DNA of 64,000 nucleotides. Origin: Psilocybe cubensis (lineage: Eukaryota). Each line of letters opens with the position of its first letter. The stretch's first letter is position 1. The position numbers and the translations under genes were made by a program. Location: the NCBI GenBank assembly GCA_017499595.2, contig CM039000.1:1736001-1800000 (forward strand), in the 5' to 3' direction. Below the pieces are notes generated by a model. That model had not been told where the DNA came from. It worked only from the letters and a program-made list of their open reading frames with translations, and did not search any database. This document shows, one piece after another, positions 12,846 through 24,100 of this stretch.

Positions 12846-13181
12846 TTTGACCGCTGTAAAGAAAATCAAATATTTGACAATAGAAATTCGGATTGAAGGT
12901 CCAAGTTATTACTTTGAGTAATGAGAAAATAAAAAAGGGAGTAGCTTGACGAATTGGCCAAGGTCAAGTGTAAACGTAAACTGGTGTAAACAGTGTGTAA
13001 ACTGAGGCGAGAGCGGTTTAATAGAGATAAGCAACCCATAACATTAACAAAGACCAAACAACGGCCATCAAATAGTAACTTACATACCTCCGGTTATTAA
13101 TAAGACATCTCACCCGCGTCACTAGGTTCAGAGGGCTTTAACTTGGATTTGCGTTGAGGGATCTACACAAGTTCTCTTCCA

Positions 13182-16100
13182 ATGGACTGGTCAGACCTAT
13201 CTACCTTGCCAAAAACGTCTGCTAATCATTATTCAGCCTTGAATTCAATATACACCAGCGAATATTGTCCGACATTGCTACCAATGACGAAGGAGACTTC
13301 GTTGAACAGGTTCTCTCAAGCAGAGTGCAGACGCGAGTAGATGCAGTAATACAGGAGGAGGAGAATAAGGACGACATTGAAGGCGTAGAACAAGGACAAA
13401 ACTATGAACGTGTTTATATGGTGTGTCTTCTACTTCTCCACTAATGCAATGCTCATTCCTTTAGTCTGCGAGGAGGGTGCAATGCAACATTGGGTTCGCG
13501 GACCTGGTTGTCAACTTTCCTGACTCACGCGTAAACACTTCACTGCATTCTGTTATGATGTCGCTCATCGATATCTTGCGAGATGTACCGTATATTGATT
13601 TCGACAAATCGTTGTCCTGGACGGGTTGGAGATCCGCGCTTGCTCTACGTATCTTGAACTCATACCTCGTTTCGCAGATTGGTCCCTACCCGACCAACTC
13701 GTATTTTCCACTATCTCAGCAATACTACGCCTTTCAAATGAGCATCGACAATATTGTGAACGTGCCACTGCAGCAATCTTCTTCTTCGTGTCTGTTTCAG
13801 TCCAAAAAATCCACAGCAGTTCATGTAAGCGGGATTACTGCTAATCTCGACTTGGTTGTTAACTGTATACTAGCTCTCGACGTTCTCACTCAGCTTATGC
13901 CAGCTCTGCACGGATTCTATCGTGCAATCAGTTCGACTTCGTATTGTTGGACACTTGCTCAATGGGAAACTCTCACCTTGCATTTGAAAGTCTTATGTTC
14001 TTCGAAAACCATAGAAAGGCTCAATCATCTTCTTGTTGATATTTTGCAACAAGAAAACGCAGACACCGAGACCCTTCGCCATATACAGACTTTTGTGACC
14101 CGCTACGTGGGGCAAGGCCGCCCACTGAGTGGTCATTTCATCGTGTGTTGTGTGTTGGAAACCGAGTGGACTGTGCTTGCTCAAGTGCTTGCTCCTTCTA
14201 CGAATAGTAGATCTGCGGTCGTTGAAGCGGCCGCTGCGAACAAGGCTTGGCTTTCCCTGACCAAAAATGCTGCACTTGAGCTGGATATAGAGTCAGAGCA
14301 GACTAAGGATGTACTTAAAAGCACCATCAAGTATGCTTTACAGTGCTTCAATGATCTTCTACTTCAAATAGAAGAAATGGAAGCAGCGCCCTCCGTGGAT
14401 ACTTGTGCATGGGAAACAGTTTCTGAAAGCCTGGTGAGTATTTGGTAGTGTCGAAGACAAGGTTTTGCAGAATTGATTTGACGTGTGCAGAAACTTGCAT
14501 CAATTTGTTGTTTGGCTCTACGAGAGATAGATGAGCAACTTTATAGCCGAATTCTACTCCTACTCAGCACCGATTCCCCTATCTCGGATAATCTTGCCCA
14601 AGAAGCGGCCCTTAAAGCAACAACTGTTCTCGTACGAAGGTATGGGTATAATTTCGATGATGGGGATGCTTCTTGTCCCTCAGCCCGAATAGTTTCCCAG
14701 ATATTGCACCAAACATGGTGGGACACCTGCGCCGCTTCGTGACTTCTCCTCTGCCACTTTTTGAATATGGTTTTCATTCGGAGAGTCGTGTTCCCCCTCC
14801 GCTATCTGCTGCTGCTAAATGCTTGGCATTGTGCATTAGAGTATGCGTTCATTTTTTTTTCTCCTGTGCTACAATGACTTGTATCTCAGCTCGCTCCCGG
14901 AGATGATTTAATCATGTCCAACATGTATTCACTTTTGAATTACATTGCTGCAACAAGCAAGGACATCTATGATTCTGCCAGTGTTCATAGCCACGGTTAT
15001 TCCCTCATTTCGCATGGGCAATCCAATCTACATTCTCTTGAATCAGGCTTGCGCGGCCTTTCGGAAGACGAGAAGAGATTGATTGGTATAAGCACAATAT
15101 CCGCTGTTACCAGGCTTGCTCTTGAATTCAAAATGGAAGAGGTTCGTCGAATACTTCTTCCATTCGGGTTTTTGTGCTAAGAACTCCAAAACGAGGTCAC
15201 ACGGCTTACCATCTCAATGTTGCTGCAACGGTTGCCTTCTGCTGAGCCCACTGTGGAGGCTGCCATTGCATATAATCTCGTCGACCTTGCTTTGGTTGCT
15301 CCCCTAAGTGCATTCAACGACATTGTCAAGGCATTTTCTACCATCAATCGTTCTGCAAACCCTGATGACCCGCGTTTCTCCAATAATATGGTATACTAAC
15401 TTTATATTTTGTATCTGATGTGTATATTGATTGATTGCATAGGTTCTAGCTGCTCAGACGCGTCTAGCTCAAGACCTTCATCAAAGACCAGAACTCTATG
15501 AAAGCTATCTCATCGAATTGTTGACCCTTTTTGCCGACAAAGGAGTTGCAATACAGAACTTGAAAATATTGAATCATCATGTCAAGGTATAACGCACAGA
15601 TGGGAGTTGCAACATTTTTAATACTTTGTTATAGATCGACGACATGGTGGAACAGTTAGCTTCTCTTCTTCTTCCTATCGATGCTCTTCTGGGACATCGG
15701 GACTTCAACCCCCACGAAAACCCTTCCAAAGAGGTTATGACTTTGTTCAGAAACACTTGGTTTCTTTGCATTCTTTTTGGTTTTACGACAGAAGATACCA
15801 GTGGTGCAAGCGCTATGGACTGGCTCAAGCCAGCACTTGCTCGTATCGCTATCAAAACTCCTTCAATGGTCGTTGAAGAATCACATGATGCAGTGGCAAG
15901 CGACGTTGAATATAACTCTGTCATCCGACAGGAATATTCCAACACTGTATGTCATCTTTTTCTTAATCGATACTGTGATTCATTTATATATTGATTTCAG
16001 GTGATATCAACGCACCGAGCTTGCTTGGCCGGGTACATATCATATCGGGCCAGCGACATTCGATATCTCTCCTCTGGTCAAGTTATATTTGTCTTGACAC

Positions 16101-19100
16101 TTCATGATATCGAAAGCATGCGATCGGCATTCGGATATCCATCATCTCTTGTCTCTTATTTCATTAATGACAGTCTTAACAGCCATCCCGGGTTAAGCGC
16201 TTGTATGGAGTCCTTGGCGGAGAAAGTAAGCCGTAATTGGGACTGGATTGCACTTATTGAATTCACGCTTGCACCAGGTTATACGGGACGCCATTATCGA
16301 TCTTAATTCCAAGGCCTCACAACAAGCGTTGCCTAAACATCTATCGACAGAGCTCCTTGCCTTGGTTGTTTTGAGCACCCACAGGATTGCAAAGGCCAGA
16401 GATATTGCGTCCAAATATCTTAATCGCCTTATCACCTCATTCCCTTCATTAATGTGTGATCCCACTTTAGTTTTTGCAATTTTAGAAGTTCTTACACTCC
16501 TCCAACGGTCATGCGAAAATGAATACATCGACGAGGTAATTCATTTTGTTATATGCATGAATATATTTTACCTGACAATTGGCGCTAGTACAACCCAACC
16601 TATGAATTCCACTCCGACAGAAGTGGGATAACTTTGCAGCTCACAGATAGCTACCAAGTTCGCAACGATATACTTGGACAGTTGCAGAGAAATGCCAACA
16701 CTTGGTTTGAACTGGCCTTGGGACGCGCCCCAATGGAACTACAATCCACACTGCAGGTATTTGGATTAATTTATACCCCACGGTATTGTAGTAATTCGCG
16801 CGCAGAAATATCTTGCTGTCAACCAGTCATTGGCTGGAATCAATTCAGCAGAATTAGGAGCCTCAATGGCGGAAAAATTCGGTAGAGCTATTGGTCCAGT
16901 GCATCGGCAGCTTCGTAAGTCGATAGCTTGCACTGTCATTCTCATGCTCAGCAAATTGTAGCATCGTTGTCGTCACTCTCACAATGGAAAATCGATGCCT
17001 CAAAAATTCTGTCCAGCCAAATTGCAATCAAGGGTTATTTTGCTGGAGAAGTGGCTGGTGTCCGATTGGCAAATCGGGAAGGTTGGAATTACTGCCACAA
17101 CAATTTCGAAATTGGGCTAATTATTCATGTTTTTTATACGCAGGTACCGATAAATTAGTTAATCCACCACCTCAAGATGCTCCACCTACCGAAATCAATG
17201 CACTCAAATCCAAACTACATAACACCCTTAAAGAAATCAAGGGAAAGAACAGCAAGTTAACAATCAATGATCTCAGAAGGCTTCTTTTCCGTTGCGCTGC
17301 TACTCTCATTGCTTTGGAAAAGGTACGGATTATTAATGTATTGGCTTGATATCGTTTTTGGAATTTTCTGACGATTACTCCAGAATGATTACGATCTAAT
17401 TCACTATCTGGCCAGATTACCTTTTGGTGTGGCTACGCCTTCTGCAATCGCCTCTGGCATTGATGTTTGGTCTTGGGTCATTGCCGAAAAATCTCAAGTA
17501 GAAGTGGCTTTAATGGGTGAAATTTTGTCTGCTTGGTCTGACACAATCCAGCTGCATAGCGGTTTGTTTTCGAAGTCTTTGAAGTAAGTCTCTTTGACAA
17601 TTTGGGTCGATGGAAATTGTGCTCAGATCCTTTTTCTAAGTTATGACGATCCTTTCTTCCATCCAATAAGCTATAGTCCTACCGACAAGGAAACCATTGA
17701 CCGTGGTCTTGCCCATGCGCGTAGGGTGCTTACACCACATGCACTTGTTTTGCAAATGTTGTTTAGCCGCCTTCAAGCAGCACGCTACCACAGACCTAGT
17801 GTCATGTTGATCATCCAACACTTGGTCCTACGTACATGCCGAGCTTACAAAAGTTTAAGGTGTGACACAGTTTTAATATACTGGAAAACAGACCAGTCTT
17901 ATAGCCATCAACAGCACGCATGCCCTTTCACGCGAAGCACGATTCTCGTTTCTTCTATTTGGGTTTGAAACGCTGAAAAGCTCCCATCTGGATGCTTATT
18001 GTGAAAACATTCTACGAGAGTGCCTTTATACAGTTGCCTTCTCGTGGTTTTCCGTGCGGCCTCAGTAAGGACCTTATATAAAGTTGAACTATAAAAATCG
18101 CTGATAGTTATGTAGATGGTCCTATGGGGCTAATCGAGTCCAAGTCGATGCGGATATAAAAGTACTATCTCAATTCCTCGCATACCTTCAGTCAGACTCC
18201 GTTAGAGGGGGTCTGACGATTTCGAGTTTATCGGTGTCACGATTTACATCCAGTTGTGCGTTCCTACCTACGATTTCTCACTCAATCTCATTATTGATTC
18301 CATATCTAGATTATGCAGAGCGAATGCGTATCTTTAATCTTCCATTGCGATTGTTGACTGAGAGTGAAATTTTCCGTTTGTCGGTTTGGGGTAACGCGAC
18401 CAATGATGCAAAAAAAGGTGGCGATATTATTGGAAATACAGAAAGAACTCTTTTGGATGTGAGCTGTTCGATCTGAATTTTGTAGCTCGCCTTCTAAAGA
18501 AGATTTTTTTTGCACTTTAGTCGTCCTGGGTCAGCATAGCGCGGACTGCTTGGCGAATCAACCCCGCCATTGCAGTGTACCTTGTGGAACGCTTCAAGAA
18601 TCCTATAGTTCGACACGAGGTTGGGAAATTGGTTCGCTCGAGTACAATTGATGTCCTTGAAGTTCCTGAGGCCCTCACATTTTTGCTTGGGGATAAACTC
18701 GACCCCAATGTCCGTAGAGATTTGAAAGTAAGTTTTCTAGAAGTTTTCTGTTCGTTGACTGTTTAAGCGTTCTTTTACAGCATCTGCTTCTGTGGTCTCC
18801 TGTTCCGCCAATTATCGCTAACACATTCTTTGAACGACGGTTCAATAGTGATCCTCTGGTATTGCAATATGCTCATCGAGTTTTGGCACAACATCCAGTC
18901 GAGCTCACCTTCTTCTTCATTCCACAAGTCGTTCAAGCTCTGCGTTATGATGATTTGGGTGCGTCATTTCTCAATTATTCAAATCTATTGTTGATTTGCT
19001 CCTAGGCTACGTGTCTCGTTTTATATTTGAGACTGCGAAGATTTCTCAGCTATTTTGTCATCAAATTATCTGGAATATGAAAGCAAATTGTTATAAAGAC

Positions 19101-20792
19101 GACGCGGCTGAGATTGTTCGCATAACAACAGTTGTTGTTGATTACGCACTAACTTCATTTTCTGCAGGAGGATCCAATGAAACCATTGCTTGACGCGATG
19201 ACAGAAAAGGTGGTTCTCTCTCTGTCTGGAGAAGCGAGGGCCTTCTACGACAGAGAGTTCTCGTTTTTTAATGAAGTCACTTCGATCTCTGGTAAACTAA
19301 AGCCTTACATCAAGAAGACCAAACCTGAAAAGAAGGTAGGTCTTCCTTGGTCTCTATTCAATACAAACTCAAATCGGTGTTTAGGCAAAAATTGACGAAG
19401 AGATGGCGAAGATTAATGTCGACGTCGGAGTATATTTACCGAGTAATCCAGACGGAATCGTGATTGATATTGATAAAAAATCCGGCAAGCCATTGCAAAG
19501 TCATGCCAAAGTGAGTTTCCCGTGATTCAAGTGCCAGAGCTTCATATATATACCTTGTTCATAGGCACCCTTCATGGCGACCTTTAAAGTCAGAAAGGAA
19601 CGTATCCAGATCAATAGTGATCCAGACTCACTCCTCAATGGCGAAGGTGGAGGCATTGAAACTCGCGCAGAATATGATGTCTGGCAACAAGCTATTTTCA
19701 AAGTCGGTGATGATTGTCGCCAAGATGTTCTTGCACTTCAGGTCATTGCCATGTTCAAGAATATCTTCACTAGCGTTGGGTTAACACTATATCTTTTCCC
19801 TTACCGTGTCACTGCGACGGCTCCTGGTGTAGGTCATATTCATGTCTAACGAGATAAATTCTGATCTAATCAACCGTAGTGTGGCGTTATTGATGTGGTT
19901 CCAAATGCTACCTCCAGAGATGAAATGGGCCGAGCAAAAGTCAATGATCTTCAAGATTTCTTTGTGGCGAAGTATGGCGGACAAGATACCACAAGTTTCC
20001 AAAAAGCTCGTCTCAACTTTATTCAATCAATGGCCGCCTACTCTGTTGCCTGTTATATATTGCAGATCAAAGACCGACACAATGGAAATATAATGATTGA
20101 CGGTGATGGGCATATTATTCATATTGGTCAGTGCTTATCTACGATTGGCAGCGCAGTTTTTGATGATATCTCCAGACTTCGGCTTCCTATTCGATATAGA
20201 TAAGTATTCTGGATTCCTCCATAGTGTTCTTGTACTTACCTACGGTGCTTCCTGCTTTCTTACGTCCTGGAGTATGTCCTTGAGATTCTCTTCGTGACTG
20301 CATTCTGATTCCCTTTTTAGGGCGTCAAATTCGAGCCTCATTCGTTCAAGCTTAACCATGAAATGGTAGTGCTAATGGGAGGGCGAGGCTCGCAAGGCTA
20401 TCAAATGTTCCAGAATTTAACAGTCAAAGCATTCTTAGCAATTCGACCTTTTGCAGAACAAATAATCAGCACTGTGCAATTAATGCTGGATACAGGACTT
20501 CCTTCATTTAAAGGAGAACCCACGATCAAACGTCTGAGAGATCGGTTTGCATTGCAATTAAACGAAAGACAGGCAGCCGAGTTTATGATGGGGATAATCC
20601 GCAACGCCCATGAAAACGTAAGAAGTACCGCTTATGACGAGTTTCAACGGGTAAGTAGCTTGTTATCACCAAGCTATGATTCACTGAAATCAACCTTTGT
20701 TTTCAAGCTTCAAAACGGTTCGTGTATCGAAACAGCGAACGATGTATGTGCCACTAACGTCTAGTTTCTTTCTAGGTATACCCTACAAATAG
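13182..20792 (+). CDS. STT4: Phosphatidylinositol 4-kinase type III alpha
   Basis: PIK helical region ([13 protein letters not shown]) and kinase motifs [34 protein letters not shown]; very many introns. Confidence 0.96.
20200..20263 (+). other. Non-canonical AT-AC intron (64 nt) in STT4, followed by an 8-nt microexon (20264-20271)
   Basis: Intron starts ATAAGT, has branch-like TACTTAC (20233-20239) and a pyrimidine tract, and ends TTAC. Removing it restores [17 protein letters not shown]. Confidence 0.8.
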
Positions 20793-21172
20793 GTCAATAC
20801 TCCTGTATTTTATTATCGCTCGCCTAATGCGACAGCATTTTGCTCAGTGCATATACTTTTCCACCCGTGTAAGTTGCCAACAGGTTGCCAATGCCGAATT
20901 GCAGGGAGGGGTATAGTAGCATTTTTGGTGCTACTGATCATAGAGATAGACGTGACATCAATCCCGAATGTTTCCAAGGCTGCGTTTGACCCAACTACTA
21001 CTCAGGCTGAGGAAATTAGTCTTATTTTGTGCCCAAATGTTCAGGTGTAGTTTCATCAATGCGATCATGTGACACGCGTTCATCCGTTATATACCTGATC
21101 ATATTGAATTATGTGGTCCCCGAGCTGTTTAACTTCGTATCCCAACAGTGCCAACGGAAGCCAGGTCAAATC

Positions 21173-24100
21173 ATGCAAGCTCAACAATCTAGAGCAGTGG
21201 CCCAGTCCATTACCCATAGTCAAAGCCTCGCAGCTGTGCAGACATTGCTTAGAGCAGGCCTCGGGTCTATAACATTTTTAAGGTTCCTCAAATTCGAGCT
21301 TCATTTTCGTAAATCACACTAATACGGTCCTGAAAATTCCCAGAAACTTACTTCCTGAAGAGAACTTCGCATCAAGTTCAGACCAGCAAACATCTGATAC
21401 TACCCCTCTTTCTTAACATTTCGTGCAGGTCATTTTACATCCATAGATGGATCGGATCAGGATTCCTCTGAGTGGGGTTTATCTCAGTCAGAAGGATCGT
21501 TCGATAGCGCCAGCTCCCGTAGAACGGTCAATAGCTTCAAGACTATGGTAAGCATTGATCATTTATCCGAATATTTATGCTTCAACCTCACCCACGTTAT
21601 GTATGCAGACCATCACGCGAGGTTACACAGATGAGGGCGACAAAATATTGAATTACTTGGTATATGCGTCTATTTAATCTTCTTTCATTATGTTTTATAC
21701 GTCCTCAGGAATATGGCGTTTTTGATGCCCTTGAAAAACGGTTTCTACGAAGTTTTATCTTCGCTATTTATCTGGTAGCTTTCTACATTACACTTCTGCC
21801 ATTCTGATTATCTCATGTTTTTCCATTTAGGATAATAAAGATCCCTGCAAGTAATATCCTTTTCCTTTTCTGCTATTGCAACAATTTTGATATTTCCCTG
21901 CCAGTATTGTTGAGGCTTATACGTTCAATTTTAAGGTGAGCCCGGTAACTACCCAATTCCTTAAATTGTAAAATGAACTCCCTTTTGTAGTATCTCTCAG
22001 TACCAGGAAGTGAAGTTCCCTTTCCTGTGATGAGTATGACAGATGCTATGAGTTCATCGACTCGAAGGAATGTCGAAGATCCGGTTACAAGAGCTATCAA
22101 GAATGGAAGAGCACCCACGTTGAAAGATGTGAAGAATAGCGTCAAGGTAATAAAGTCGCTTATTGGAGAAGTGTAACCTGTCTGAAATTCTCTGTGCTAC
22201 AGAGTATGTTGAAAACACTGATACAGGCTATGCATCATATGGACTTGTTGCCCAGTACGTTTCCACCAACCTCACTTTCGCAGGTGTTAATAGAATATTT
22301 AGAACGTCGCTTTGCAACATTTAAACTTTTTTATACTGAGGAAACACCCGCAGATTACGAACCTCCTAATTTTCAGGCTGGGGACGTAGATAAAGACAGA
22401 TGGTATTTTATGACCCACGACCTAGACGAGGTTCCTGAAAGATGCAGTATTGGGAAATTTGATGCAGGACACCATTTGTAAGCTGCATACAGCTATGACA
22501 TGGATGTGATACTGATCTACAATCAGGGTCAAGCTCAGCGTTACTTCTATCGCATCTTATCTACCCTCTTCTACAATTCATGATCATGCAACATTTTCTG
22601 GTATCACCTCTCAGCCAGGACACCAAGCCCTTTCAGCAGTGCAAGAAGCTGATTTACGCGAAAATGATGTCCACAAGCAGTTAGAAGATGCTGAGCAAAG
22701 AAACCTTCTATGGGCTGTAGAGGATCTGAGTGATCGAGATGCGGATGGAGAGGACGATACGGATTATATGCAGGACTCTAATGAACAATGCCTTCCGGTT
22801 GGTATCCGAAACATTAACGGAGAGATTGAAGCAATTCCAATGAATAAACGAACGGTCGAACAACACTTCAGTGGATTGATAGAAAACATTCCAAAGCGTT
22901 TGCATGAGATTGTGGGTGTTTTGGTATTCCGCGCTGATATATCACTGATCGGAATATACAACCTATTAGGTAGCGCAAGAAATACCCAAAGGCGCTCATT
23001 TGGACGAAACGCAGCCTCTGTTGGCTACTGGCGACTATAACACTGTTGACAACGGTACCCATATACGTATTTCATCAAAAACGACTTTTTGCTCACACCT
23101 CTATATATCTAGATACTGGTAGAGCTTTAAACTCGCGTTCACCGGAGCAACCGAGAAGCTCTCCCTTTTCTAATGCGCCCACAACACCTACGCCTCATGA
23201 CTTTGATCCAGAAATGCTGAAGAGCATGAGCATCGGAGGCCAGGATGACATCGAAATGTTAGGTTTGCCGTTTTCACAGTGGTATTCCCATTGAAGCTAT
23301 ACTTGCCGAATGATCGTCTCTTATTTAGATCTTGAAACGCAAGTGCGAGAGGAAACGTCTTCAGCACCTGACTTGTTTCCTCCTGAAGGATCCCAAGATA
23401 ACACGAATAATCATGAATCCGACGATAATGGGTTGGACTGTGATTGCGGAATTTCTGTAAGTTTCTGGTCAACGTCACCTGAGACCCCGCGTTAACATAC
23501 CCTTCAAAAATTTAGTTAGAAGATCTGTGCTGTTACTGTGAAGGAGGATGTAAAAAATGGTTCCATGTGTGGTCCGTGTATTTTTTTTTTGCATCCCTTT
23601 GTCCAATTAACCCTGCAATTCTTCCAGGTGTATGGGGTATGACATGGTTTGACCACATTCAGAGAAGATATACCTAAAGCGAATTACCTAGGTATCATTC
23701 CATCGACGATCCAAGAATGCCCACGAAGTTTGTATGCTTCGACTGTCGAATGCAGAAGGACATTACATGGGAGCTCATTAAGATTGAAATATACCCTCGC
23801 ATGCTGTCCAAGTTCAAGGAGCTTGCTCTTTTCAGGTAACCAGTCAACAATTCATAAACTAAAAAAGGCTTACAGTATGTGAAGGCGTGCTATAAAGGTC
23901 GCGCAAAAGGAACAAAAGTTTACTTCATTTCAGTTTTCTAAATCTTTCGGTTAGATTTTTTCCCTACTGTTGTCAGAGTATTAATGTGCTGGTCATTGGT
24001 AGCTCATGGTGACATGGAGTTAACTTCACAAATGCTGAAAAAACTGGAGGAAGACGGTACGCACTCACATGAAGGTCTACTGATAGCGCCACAATAATGT

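What the first reader, a model, noticed from the sequence alone, without database searches (positions are those of the whole stretch)
20176..20320. Apparently obligatory AT-AC intron (ATAAGT...TAC) plus 8-nt microexon in the STT4 activation segment
Seen: after ...TTC GAT ATA G the sequence reads ATAAGT...TACTTAC...CTTTCTTAC (20200-20263), then GTCCTGGA (20264-20271), then a normal GTATGT...TAG intron (20272-20320). This splicing gives [17 protein letters not shown], the expected PI4KIIIalpha segment. Splicing the nearby GT at 20204 to 20320 frameshifts, and 20200-20320 as one intron also breaks frame. Known: the donor is not U12-type (ATATCCT), and basidiomycetes are generally reported to lack the minor spliceosome. 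In yeast, a G1A donor change is suppressed by a terminal C. AUAAGU is also the donor used for spliceosomal 3'-end cleavage of Pezizomycotina telomerase RNA. Inference: this is a natural U2-type AT-AC intron in a gene that is essential in yeast. It may act as a rate-limiting splicing switch, and GT-AG-only gene predictors would misannotate it.
Basis: partly seen in the sequence, partly recalled or inferred. Interest (0 to 1): 0.8.

Follow-up and report, generated by a model that had tools for sequence, protein, structure and literature searches.

The report
Ancient AT-AC intron in mushroom STT4
A mushroom gene for an essential lipid kinase holds a rare intron that starts with AT and ends with AC beside an 8-base exon; it is really spliced, very old, and breaks about half of the public gene models of its relatives.

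Summary
Window 20200-20263 is a 64-nt intron with AT...AC ends. It is followed by the 8-nt exon GTCCTGGA (20264-20271) and an ordinary GT-AG intron (20272-20320). All lie in the activation loop of the STT4/PI4K-IIIalpha gene of an Agaricales fungus. Two intron-free transcript contigs join 20199 to 20321 with exactly GTCCTGGA between. Raw genomic reads show no variant at 20200 or 20263. No GT/GC-AG route restores the conserved PGG motif.

The intron is ancient and fixed. 58 of 58 distinct orthologous copies (76 of 80 metagenome loci plus the window) are AT-AC, and none is GT-AG. Signatures in named species run from Cantharellales to Agaricales and into Tremellomycetes. A Naganishia-like genome has lost it.

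The donors are AT[A/G]AGT, with none ATATCC, so it looks U2-type. The exon codon before it is frozen as ATA.

Of 168 public protein models of relatives, 88 read the site correctly.

U2-type AT-AC introns and fungal microexons are already known kinds, so this is a new, unusually old member.

The parts
13182..20792 (+). STT4 / PI4K-IIIalpha coding region, 34 coding exons, 1954 aa, TAG stop at 20790-20792
   Evidence: Spliced alignment to relative P0003 gives 33 introns, 32 GT-AG and 1 AT-AC. It reproduces all 15 RNA junctions listed. The other 18 introns rest on homology only. Pfam PI3_PI4_kinase. Relative P0003's best solved relative is human PI4KA, E 2.7e-206.
20127..20175 (+). Ordinary GT-AG intron (GTCAGT...CTCCAG, phase 1) between ...GHIIHI and DFGF...
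   Evidence: Present in all 77 metagenome loci that show the DFGF exon and are not spliced.
20176..20199 (+). 24-nt exon: last 2 bases of the Asp codon, then F G F L F D I, then the first base of the Gly codon. It ends ...ATA G, giving AG at -2/-1 of the donor.
   Evidence: The Ile codon is ATA in 59 of 61 distinct AT-AC loci, while the other synonymous sites of this exon vary.
20200..20263 (+). AT-AC intron, 64 nt, phase 1, donor ATAAGT, 3' end TCTTAC; the longest intron of the gene
   Evidence: Removed in the X10 and X11 transcript contigs. 58 of 58 distinct orthologous copies are AT-AC.
20235..20239 (+). Candidate branch site CTTAC; the A at 20238 lies 25 nt before the 3' end (predicted, not mapped)
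   Evidence: A CTNAY motif lies 10-45 nt upstream in 56 of 58 distinct copies, median 21 nt.
20264..20271 (+). 8-nt microexon GTCCTGGA: completes Gly (G|GT), then Pro and Gly of the conserved GPGG
   Evidence: These exact letters lie between the two joints in X10 and X11 (table 5c). Orthologues read G[N]CC[N]GG[N], varying only at synonymous places.
20272..20320 (+). Ordinary GT-AG intron 2 (GTATGT...TTTTAG, phase 0)
   Evidence: 52 of 52 distinct orthologous copies are GT-AG. Absent in 8 Russulaceae-like loci.
20321..20650 (+). 330-nt exon [16 protein letters not shown]...YDEFQR, the rest of the kinase domain
   Evidence: One contiguous piece in X10 and X11 (table 8). 95% identical to the Galerina marginata protein.

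Best explanation
This is a constitutively spliced AT-AC intron of the major (U2-type) kind, next to an ordinary GT-AG intron. The two leave an 8-nt exon between them that encodes the GPG of the activation loop of the essential kinase Stt4/PI4K-IIIalpha.

Proposed mechanism:
- The donor AG|AUAAGU matches the normal U1/U6 recognition sequence at every place except +1.
- A normal CUNAY branch site about 20-25 nt from the 3' end supports the first step.
- The second step, which normally needs the first and last G of the intron to contact each other, works because A at the first place is matched by C at the last.
- A change at either end alone would stall splicing of an essential gene. Two simultaneous changes are needed to reach GT-AG, so the AT-AC state has stayed frozen since before the split of Agaricomycetes and Tremellomycetes.
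- The rest of the donor is held close to consensus to compensate, including the exon's ATA codon.

Shown: the junctions, the genomic bases, the conservation, the donor composition and the misannotation.
Inferred: use of the major spliceosome, the A-C contact, the branch site, and the reason for the stasis.
For: - Junctions in two intron-free transcript contigs.
- No variant at 20200 or 20263 in raw DNA reads X13, nor in contig X6, which may be the window's own source.
- No canonical alternative.
- 76 of 80 metagenome loci carry the complete intron. With the window that makes 58 distinct sequences, and 58 of 58 are AT-AC.
- Donor hexamers among 57: ATAAGT 36, ATGAGT 14, ATATGT 2, five others once each, 0 ATATCC. 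One of 57 has TCCTTRAY in the last 40 nt.
- Information content is confined to +1..+6 and the last 3 nt.
- RAGT at +3..+6 in 54 of 61 AT-AC donors, against 32 of 56 donors of the neighbouring intron (Fisher p 1.4e-4, not corrected for relatedness) and 6 of 32 GT-AG introns of this gene.
- The Ile codon is ATA in 59 of 61. L080, which lacks the intron, has ATC.
- Named species whose models run into the intron as DID[K/E...] or out of it as ..RPGG / ..TSWS.. include Clavulina and Tulasnella (Cantharellales), Phellopilus, Hysterangium, Sertulicium, Russulales, Polyporales, Boletales, Atheliales, Agaricales and the tremellomycete Cryptotrichosporon argae.
- No minor introns were found in Basidiomycota (PMC10639083, passages).
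Against: - Which spliceosome acts was not tested, and no genome was available for an snRNA search.
- X10 and X11 are contigs from one study, labelled RNA only by guess. Contigs hide minor isoforms, so 'constitutive' is not quantified.
- The orthologous loci are related to each other and carry no names. Taxon placement rests on the nearest named protein, and the named-species evidence is back-read from protein models, not DNA.
- One metagenome ORF, P0180, reads [11 protein letters not shown], as a GT donor at this place would. Its DNA could not be fetched.
- The window's own predicted branch site CTTAC is not the commonest fungal form.
Confidence: 0.9

Rival explanations
1. It is a regulated, rate-limiting intron: slow or conditional removal of the AT-AC intron, or skipping of the microexon, tunes the amount of active Stt4.
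For: AT-AC ends and an 8-nt exon are both weak contexts in principle, and the position in the catalytic loop means any mis-splice kills the protein. No direct observation here supports regulation.
Against: All four transcript-like contigs are fully spliced at this site (X10 and X11; L027 and L043). L027 retains an ordinary GT-AG intron while the AT-AC intron is removed. The rest of the donor is held near consensus, which suggests selection for efficient splicing rather than weak splicing. Russulaceae-like loci dropped intron 2, and a Naganishia-like locus dropped the AT-AC intron, without other change. The arrangement is therefore dispensable.
Confidence: 0.08
2. It is a U12-type intron removed by a minor spliceosome that this fungus still has.
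For: AT-AC ends, phase 1 and deep conservation are all typical of U12-type introns (established knowledge).
Against: 0 of 57 donors read ATATCC. One of 57 has a TCCTTRAY-like motif near the 3' end. Branch-like CTNAY sits a median 21 nt upstream. A survey of over 3000 genomes found no convincing minor introns or snRNAs in Basidiomycota (PMC10639083, passages). An Rfam scan of the window found nothing, but 64 kb is uninformative.
Confidence: 0.02
3. It is an artefact: a sequencing or assembly error, or a dead gene copy.
For: None, beyond the rarity of AT-AC.
Against: Independent raw reads X13 agree at both bases; contig X6 also agrees but may be the window's own source. The frame is open for 1954 aa with 32 normal introns. 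The transcript exists. The same ends occur in 58 distinct orthologues.
Confidence: 0.01

Closest known systems
U2-type ('type II') AT-AC introns of animals, e.g. human SCN4A/SCN5A (Sheth et al. 2006, PMC1557818, passages seen)
   Same: AT...AC ends with a donor that is otherwise the normal U2-type consensus /ATAAGT. Very rare: 24 of about 610,000 introns in five model species. The borders are conserved over long times (human to pufferfish).
   Different: This one is fungal, only 64 nt long, sits in a lineage reported to have no minor spliceosome at all, abuts an 8-nt exon, and is conserved across a fungal subphylum. Dependence on U2 was shown by experiment for SCN4A/5A but not here.
AT-AC introns catalogued in Agaricomycete re-annotations: Ganoderma lingzhi, 13 AT-AC in its table of splice-site types (GT-AG 89,855), one Sanger-confirmed in a DNA polymerase delta gene (PMC11590231, passages); Coprinopsis cinerea (PMC12230235, passages); Phanerochaete and others, 0.03% (PMC4084796, passages)
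   Same: Same class of organism, same rarity, and the same consequence: older gene models are broken where AT-AC is not recognised.
   Different: Those papers give counts and one example. In the passages I saw none names STT4 or reports conservation across orders. Their supplementary lists, which I could not open, may include the STT4 orthologue.
Engineered yeast intron with first G to A rescued by last G to C (Parker and Siliciano 1993, as cited in PMC5029451, passages), and the endogenous RPL30 AT-AC splice
   Same: The same logic: A at the first place is tolerated only with C at the last, and the major spliceosome does the work in an organism without a minor one.
   Different: The yeast cases are artificial or minor (about 1-2% of RPL30 mRNA). 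The RPL30 donor does not resemble /ATAAGT. Here the AT-AC splice is the only productive route in an essential gene.
U12-type AT-AC introns
   Same: Terminal dinucleotides, phase 1, deep conservation.
   Different: Donor /ATATCCTT and branch TCCTTAAC are absent, and the host clade lacks the machinery according to the literature.
Fungal microexons (Coprinopsis cinerea: 1,165 gene models with an internal exon of 15 nt or less; PMC12230235, passages)
   Same: An internal exon of 8 nt whose omission breaks the frame. The same gene has a second one of 10 nt (20708-20717).
   Different: Nothing unusual as a microexon, apart from its AT-AC neighbour.

Membership tests
U2-type (type II) AT-AC intron | The intron begins AT and ends AC, and is really removed at those bases | tested here: met
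   (table 5c). The left junction cannot be shifted.
U2-type (type II) AT-AC intron | The donor matches the U2-type consensus except at +1 (/ATAAGT) | tested here: met
   The window has ATAAGT. Of 57 distinct orthologues 50 read AT[A/G]AGT. Information content is high at +1..+6.
U2-type (type II) AT-AC intron | Lacks the U12-type donor and branch motifs | tested here: met
   0 of 57 ATATCC; 1 of 57 TCCTTRAY in the last 40 nt.
U2-type (type II) AT-AC intron | Removal depends on U1/U2/U4/U6 and not on U11/U12/U4atac/U6atac | not testable with these tools
   No genome held. Only the literature statement for Basidiomycota is available.
U12-type (minor) intron | Donor /[AG]TATCCTT and branch TCCTTAAC 10-15 nt from the 3' end | tested here: not met
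U12-type (minor) intron | Minor snRNAs present in the genome | not testable with these tools
   The Rfam scan of the 64-kb window gave 0 matches, which says nothing about the genome.
Microexon (internal exon of 15 nt or less) | A short internal exon flanked by two introns and present in the mature RNA | tested here: met
   The 8 letters GTCCTGGA lie between the joints in X10 and X11. They occur once in the region, at 20264.
Type III alpha PI 4-kinase (Stt4 / PI4KA) | PI3/PI4-kinase catalytic domain with DFG...PGG activation loop in a protein of about 1900-2100 aa; closest solved relative is PI4KA rather than PI4KB or a PI3K | tested here: met
   Pfam PF00454. Relatives carry PF19274, PF00613 and PF00454 and are named STT4/PI4K. 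The model is 1954 aa. The close relative P0003 (Agrocybe pediades) matches PI4KA at E 2.7e-206 against PI4KB at 6.8e-54.

The most novel reading that the evidence does not exclude
The intron is a molecular fossil of a U12-type AT-AC intron. It was captured by the major spliceosome when the ancestors of Dikarya lost the minor one. It has since been locked in the AT-AC state, because either single-base step toward GT-AG would stall splicing of an essential kinase. If so, fungi that kept the minor spliceosome (such as Rhizophagus, Basidiobolus or Spizellomyces), or animals, should carry a U12-type intron at the same phase-1 Gly codon of PI4KA. Nothing here tests this. In the broad protein sample, the non-Agaricomycotina-like relatives showed no run-through signature at this site. 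A search for PI4KA together with 'minor intron' found no paper.
Probability: 0.12. Interest if true: 0.75.

Novelty: new member of a known kind. Interest (0 to 1): 0.5.

Why it matters
- It gives a natural, constitutive and evolutionarily frozen example of the A-first/C-last rule of the second splicing step. It sits in an essential gene of organisms reported to have only the major spliceosome, so it is a ready test bed for splice-site proofreading and for how non-canonical introns persist.
- It is a concrete annotation warning. In 80 of 168 retrieved relatives (59 of the 120 closest) the protein does not read correctly across the catalytic activation loop of a conserved kinase. Most of these are gene models; some are raw ORF fragments. 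Domain, phylogeny and structure work based on such models inherits the error.
- Presence or absence of the two introns marks lineages: Russulaceae-like genomes lack intron 2, and Naganishia-like genomes lack the AT-AC intron.

Tried and rejected
- Whole-genome search for minor snRNAs: impossible, because no genome is held for this window. The Rfam scan of the window gave 0 matches, which is uninformative.
- The look-up of sequencing runs listed no holder on record as RNA. X10 and X11, marked 'RNA?' by guess, were laid and turned out intron-free.
- A canonical-only gene structure was rejected.
- Nested or recursive GT-AG splicing was rejected by reasoning: any series of cuts must include one whose 5' edge is 20199|20200, so its intron starts with A.
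- Partially spliced transcripts among the metagenome loci: none. Every locus with the AT-AC intron that could be checked also keeps its flanking introns, so these are genomic DNA.
- A conserved element inside the intron: none beyond the splice signals. A GATA-like motif near the 3' end is present in only 19 of 58.
- P0071 at first seemed to contradict the AC acceptor. It reads ..TARSKY.., which fits AC|GGCCCGGA|GTAAGT.
- GT-AG versions of the intron: none in 58 distinct DNA copies. The only hint is ORF P0180 (DIGEI*).
- Earlier notes of this scan: none.
- Literature searches: 'AT-AC' with 'STT4' gave 0 papers. 'AT-AC' with 'phosphatidylinositol 4-kinase' and 'intron' gave 1 paper, on vertebrate annotation, seen as a listing only. 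'PI4KA' with 'minor intron' gave 0. Supplementary files of the Ganoderma and Coprinopsis papers were not available and may list this intron.

Full report
WHAT IS THERE

- the exon ends ...TTC GAT ATA G at 20199;
- ATAAGT...CTTTCTTAC runs 20200-20263 (64 nt);
- GTCCTGGA is 20264-20271;
- GTATGT...TTTTTAG is 20272-20320 (49 nt);
- GGC GTC AAA TTC GAG CCT starts at 20321.

The flanking exons carry the PI3/PI4-kinase domain. The closest relatives are STT4/PI4K proteins of Agaricales: Galerina marginata 95%, Flammula alnicola 94%, Agrocybe pediades 95% over the 110-aa exon. The nearest solved structure to such a relative is human PI4KA, at E 2.7e-206, against 6.8e-54 for PI4KB. Only the proposed splicing yields [17 protein letters not shown], the form found in correctly modelled relatives.

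IS IT USED?

No whole genome is held for this window. Runs that hold the DNA were found. Two of them, X10 and X11, are marked RNA only by guess, hold 0.60 and 0.50 of the sampled words, and come from one study.

Laid on window 13000-21500, each gives one long contig (5945 and 5363 nt) from which the gene's introns are gone. The 15 joints listed are all GT..AG, and 19 more were not shown. Both contigs join 20199 to 20321 with the letters GTCCTGGA in between, at depth 43.9 and 30.6. That 8-mer occurs once in the region, at 20264. The left junction cannot slide, because the base before 20264 is C while the mRNA has G there.

Raw genomic reads of another study (X13, about 41x in that bin) and contig X6 (near-identical, possibly the window's own source) list no other letter at 20200 or 20263. 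The A and the C are therefore genomic.

A homology-guided spliced alignment allowed GT-AG, GC-AG and AT-AC, with AT-AC penalised most. It returns a 1954-aa protein from 34 coding exons with 33 introns, 32 GT-AG and this one AT-AC. It reproduces all 15 listed RNA junctions. The other 18 introns rest on homology alone.

With AT-AC forbidden, the best solution needs a 21-nt intron and a 1-nt exon and still loses PGG. Nested canonical splicing cannot help either, because one cut must always start at 20200, which is A.

HOW OLD AND HOW FIXED?

One scan of metagenome contigs with the downstream exon gave 187 pattern matches and 149 confirmed relatives. The best 80 were kept as loci. Of these 80:
- 76 carry the complete first intron;
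- L033 starts inside it and shows only the AC end;
- L027 and L043 are spliced transcript-like contigs;
- L080 is genomic but lacks the intron.

With the window, the 76 give 58 distinct intron sequences, and 58 of 58 are AT...AC. The neighbouring intron 2 is GT-AG in 52 of 52 distinct copies. The microexon varies only at synonymous places, G[N]CC[N]GG[N].

Eight loci have the AT-AC intron but no intron 2, so no microexon. Their exon is closest to Russulaceae: Lactifluus 92%, Lactarius 90%, Russula 88%. L080 is closest to the tremellomycete yeast Naganishia, at 85-87%.

Named species add breadth indirectly. Where a predictor ran into the intron, the protein reads DFGFLFDI-D-[K/E/M/N/D]. (ACG TCC TGG AGT).

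Such signatures occur in Clavulina and Tulasnella (Cantharellales), Phellopilus, Hysterangium, Sertulicium/Sistotremastrum, Russulales, Polyporales, Boletales, Atheliales and many Agaricales. They also occur in the tremellomycete Cryptotrichosporon argae. Unnamed fragments nearest to Kwoniella show them too.

The AT-AC state therefore predates the split of Agaricomycetes and Tremellomycetes. By recalled fungal time trees that is several hundred million years; I did not compute a date.

No GT-AG copy was seen in DNA. The one hint is the metagenome ORF P0180, which reads DIGEI* as a GT donor would. I could neither place it nor fetch its DNA.

WHICH MACHINERY?

The donors are:
- ATAAGT in 36 of 57 distinct copies;
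- ATGAGT in 14;
- ATATGT in 2;
- five other variants once each.

None is ATATCC, and only 1 of 57 has a TCCTTRAY-like motif near the 3' end. Information content is confined to +1..+6 and the last three bases. A CTNAY motif lies 10-45 nt upstream in 56 of 58 copies, median 21 nt. In the window the candidate is CTTAC, with its A at 20238.

[quoted passage not shown] A survey of over 3000 genomes found no convincing minor introns in Ascomycota or Basidiomycota (PMC10639083, passages). I therefore read it as a U2-type AT-AC intron. This is an inference from motifs and literature, not a test.

SIGNS OF COMPENSATION

- RAGT at +3..+6 occurs in 54 of 61 AT-AC donors. The figure is 32 of 56 for the donors of intron 2 in the same loci (Fisher p 1.4e-4, not corrected for relatedness) and 6 of 32 for this gene's own GT-AG introns.
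- On the exon side, the Ile codon before the junction is ATA in 59 of 61 distinct loci (one ATT; one AGA in L074).
- Every other synonymous site of that 8-codon exon varies freely. L080, which has no intron there, uses ATC.
- Together these give AG|AURAGU, complementary to the 5' end of U1 at all places but +1 (the U1 sequence is recalled, not checked).

WHAT IT IS NOT

All four transcript-like contigs are spliced here, and L027 keeps an ordinary GT-AG intron while the AT-AC intron is gone. Lineages have dropped either intron without other change. Contigs cannot exclude a minor retained form, so raw reads are needed.

CONSEQUENCE FOR ANNOTATION

Of the 120 closest relatives:
- 61 read DIGPGGVKFEP;
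- 27 run into the intron as DID...;
- 31 have no DFGF within 60 residues upstream of GVKFEP (the exon is skipped, replaced by intron-derived residues, or the fragment starts downstream of it);
- 1 lacks the GVKFEP landmark, so the site could not be located.

Over all 168 proteins from three searches the counts are 88, 37, 39 and 3, plus one that lacks intron 1 and runs into intron 2. Both outcomes occur within single genera such as Suillus and Mycena. That points to the annotation rather than the genome.

COMPARISON WITH WHAT IS KNOWN

U2-type AT-AC introns are a known, very rare class: 24 of about 610,000 introns in five model species (PMC1557818). AT-AC introns have been counted in Agaricomycetes:
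- 13 in Ganoderma lingzhi, one confirmed by Sanger sequencing (PMC11590231);
- mentioned as a class in Coprinopsis cinerea (PMC12230235);
- 0.03% in SnowyOwl models (PMC4084796);
- called a minor class in fungi (PMC7072748).

Microexons of 15 nt or less occur in about 9% of C. cinerea gene models. For all these papers I saw passages only, and supplements were closed.

Searches for AT-AC with STT4 or with phosphatidylinositol 4-kinase found nothing relevant. So this is a new member of a known kind. It is notable for its age, its complete fixation, its place in an essential catalytic loop, and the size of the annotation error it causes.

The boldest reading left open is that it descends from a U12-type intron captured by the major spliceosome when Dikarya lost the minor one. 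I could not test that.

Noticed in passing
window 20708-20717: A second microexon in the same gene, CTTCAAAACG (10 nt, L-Q-N and the first base of G), lies between the GT-AG introns 20651-20707 and 20718-20775. It shows up in X10 and X11 as letters lying between joints.
   Followed up: partly
window 20793-20847: A 55-nt GT..AG intron starts directly after the TAG stop codon (20790-20792). It is spliced in the X11 contig and in one X10 contig, and apparently retained in another X10 contig (tables 5c and 7).
   Followed up: partly
L062, L063, L068, L070, L072, L073, L077, L079: Eight loci carry the AT-AC intron but lack intron 2, so the microexon is fused to the next exon. L079's exon is closest to Russulaceae. 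This marks loss of an intron in that lineage.
   Followed up: partly
L080:1240-1346: A genomic locus closest to Naganishia (Tremellomycetes) lacks the AT-AC intron precisely (GATATCGGTCCAGGA|GTACGT...) but keeps intron 2. The ORFs P0163 and P0197 show the same arrangement.
   Followed up: partly
protein P0180 (JGI metagenome ORF, contig 1889 nt): It reads ...[11 protein letters not shown], as expected if the intron at this position began GTGAGAT. This may be a GT-AG version in an unplaced Agaricomycotina lineage. The DNA was not obtainable.
   Followed up: partly
L033:40-55 and L074:1340-1360: L033's microexon reads GTCACGGG, which would give His in place of the conserved Pro; this may be an error in a short contig. 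L074 has Arg (AGA) instead of Ile before the AT-AC donor.
   Followed up: no
window 13047-19488: Raw reads X13 show about half-frequency differences at several places (for example 13047, 13775, 15170, 16580, 19488) and two insertions at 13450 and 14851. Both insertions fall inside introns of the model. This looks like allelic or strain variation.
   Followed up: no
window 13182-13189: By homology the coding part of the first exon is only 8 nt (start ATG at 13182) before a GT-AG intron 13190-13236. This rests on the alignment to P0003 alone, not on a listed RNA junction.
   Followed up: no
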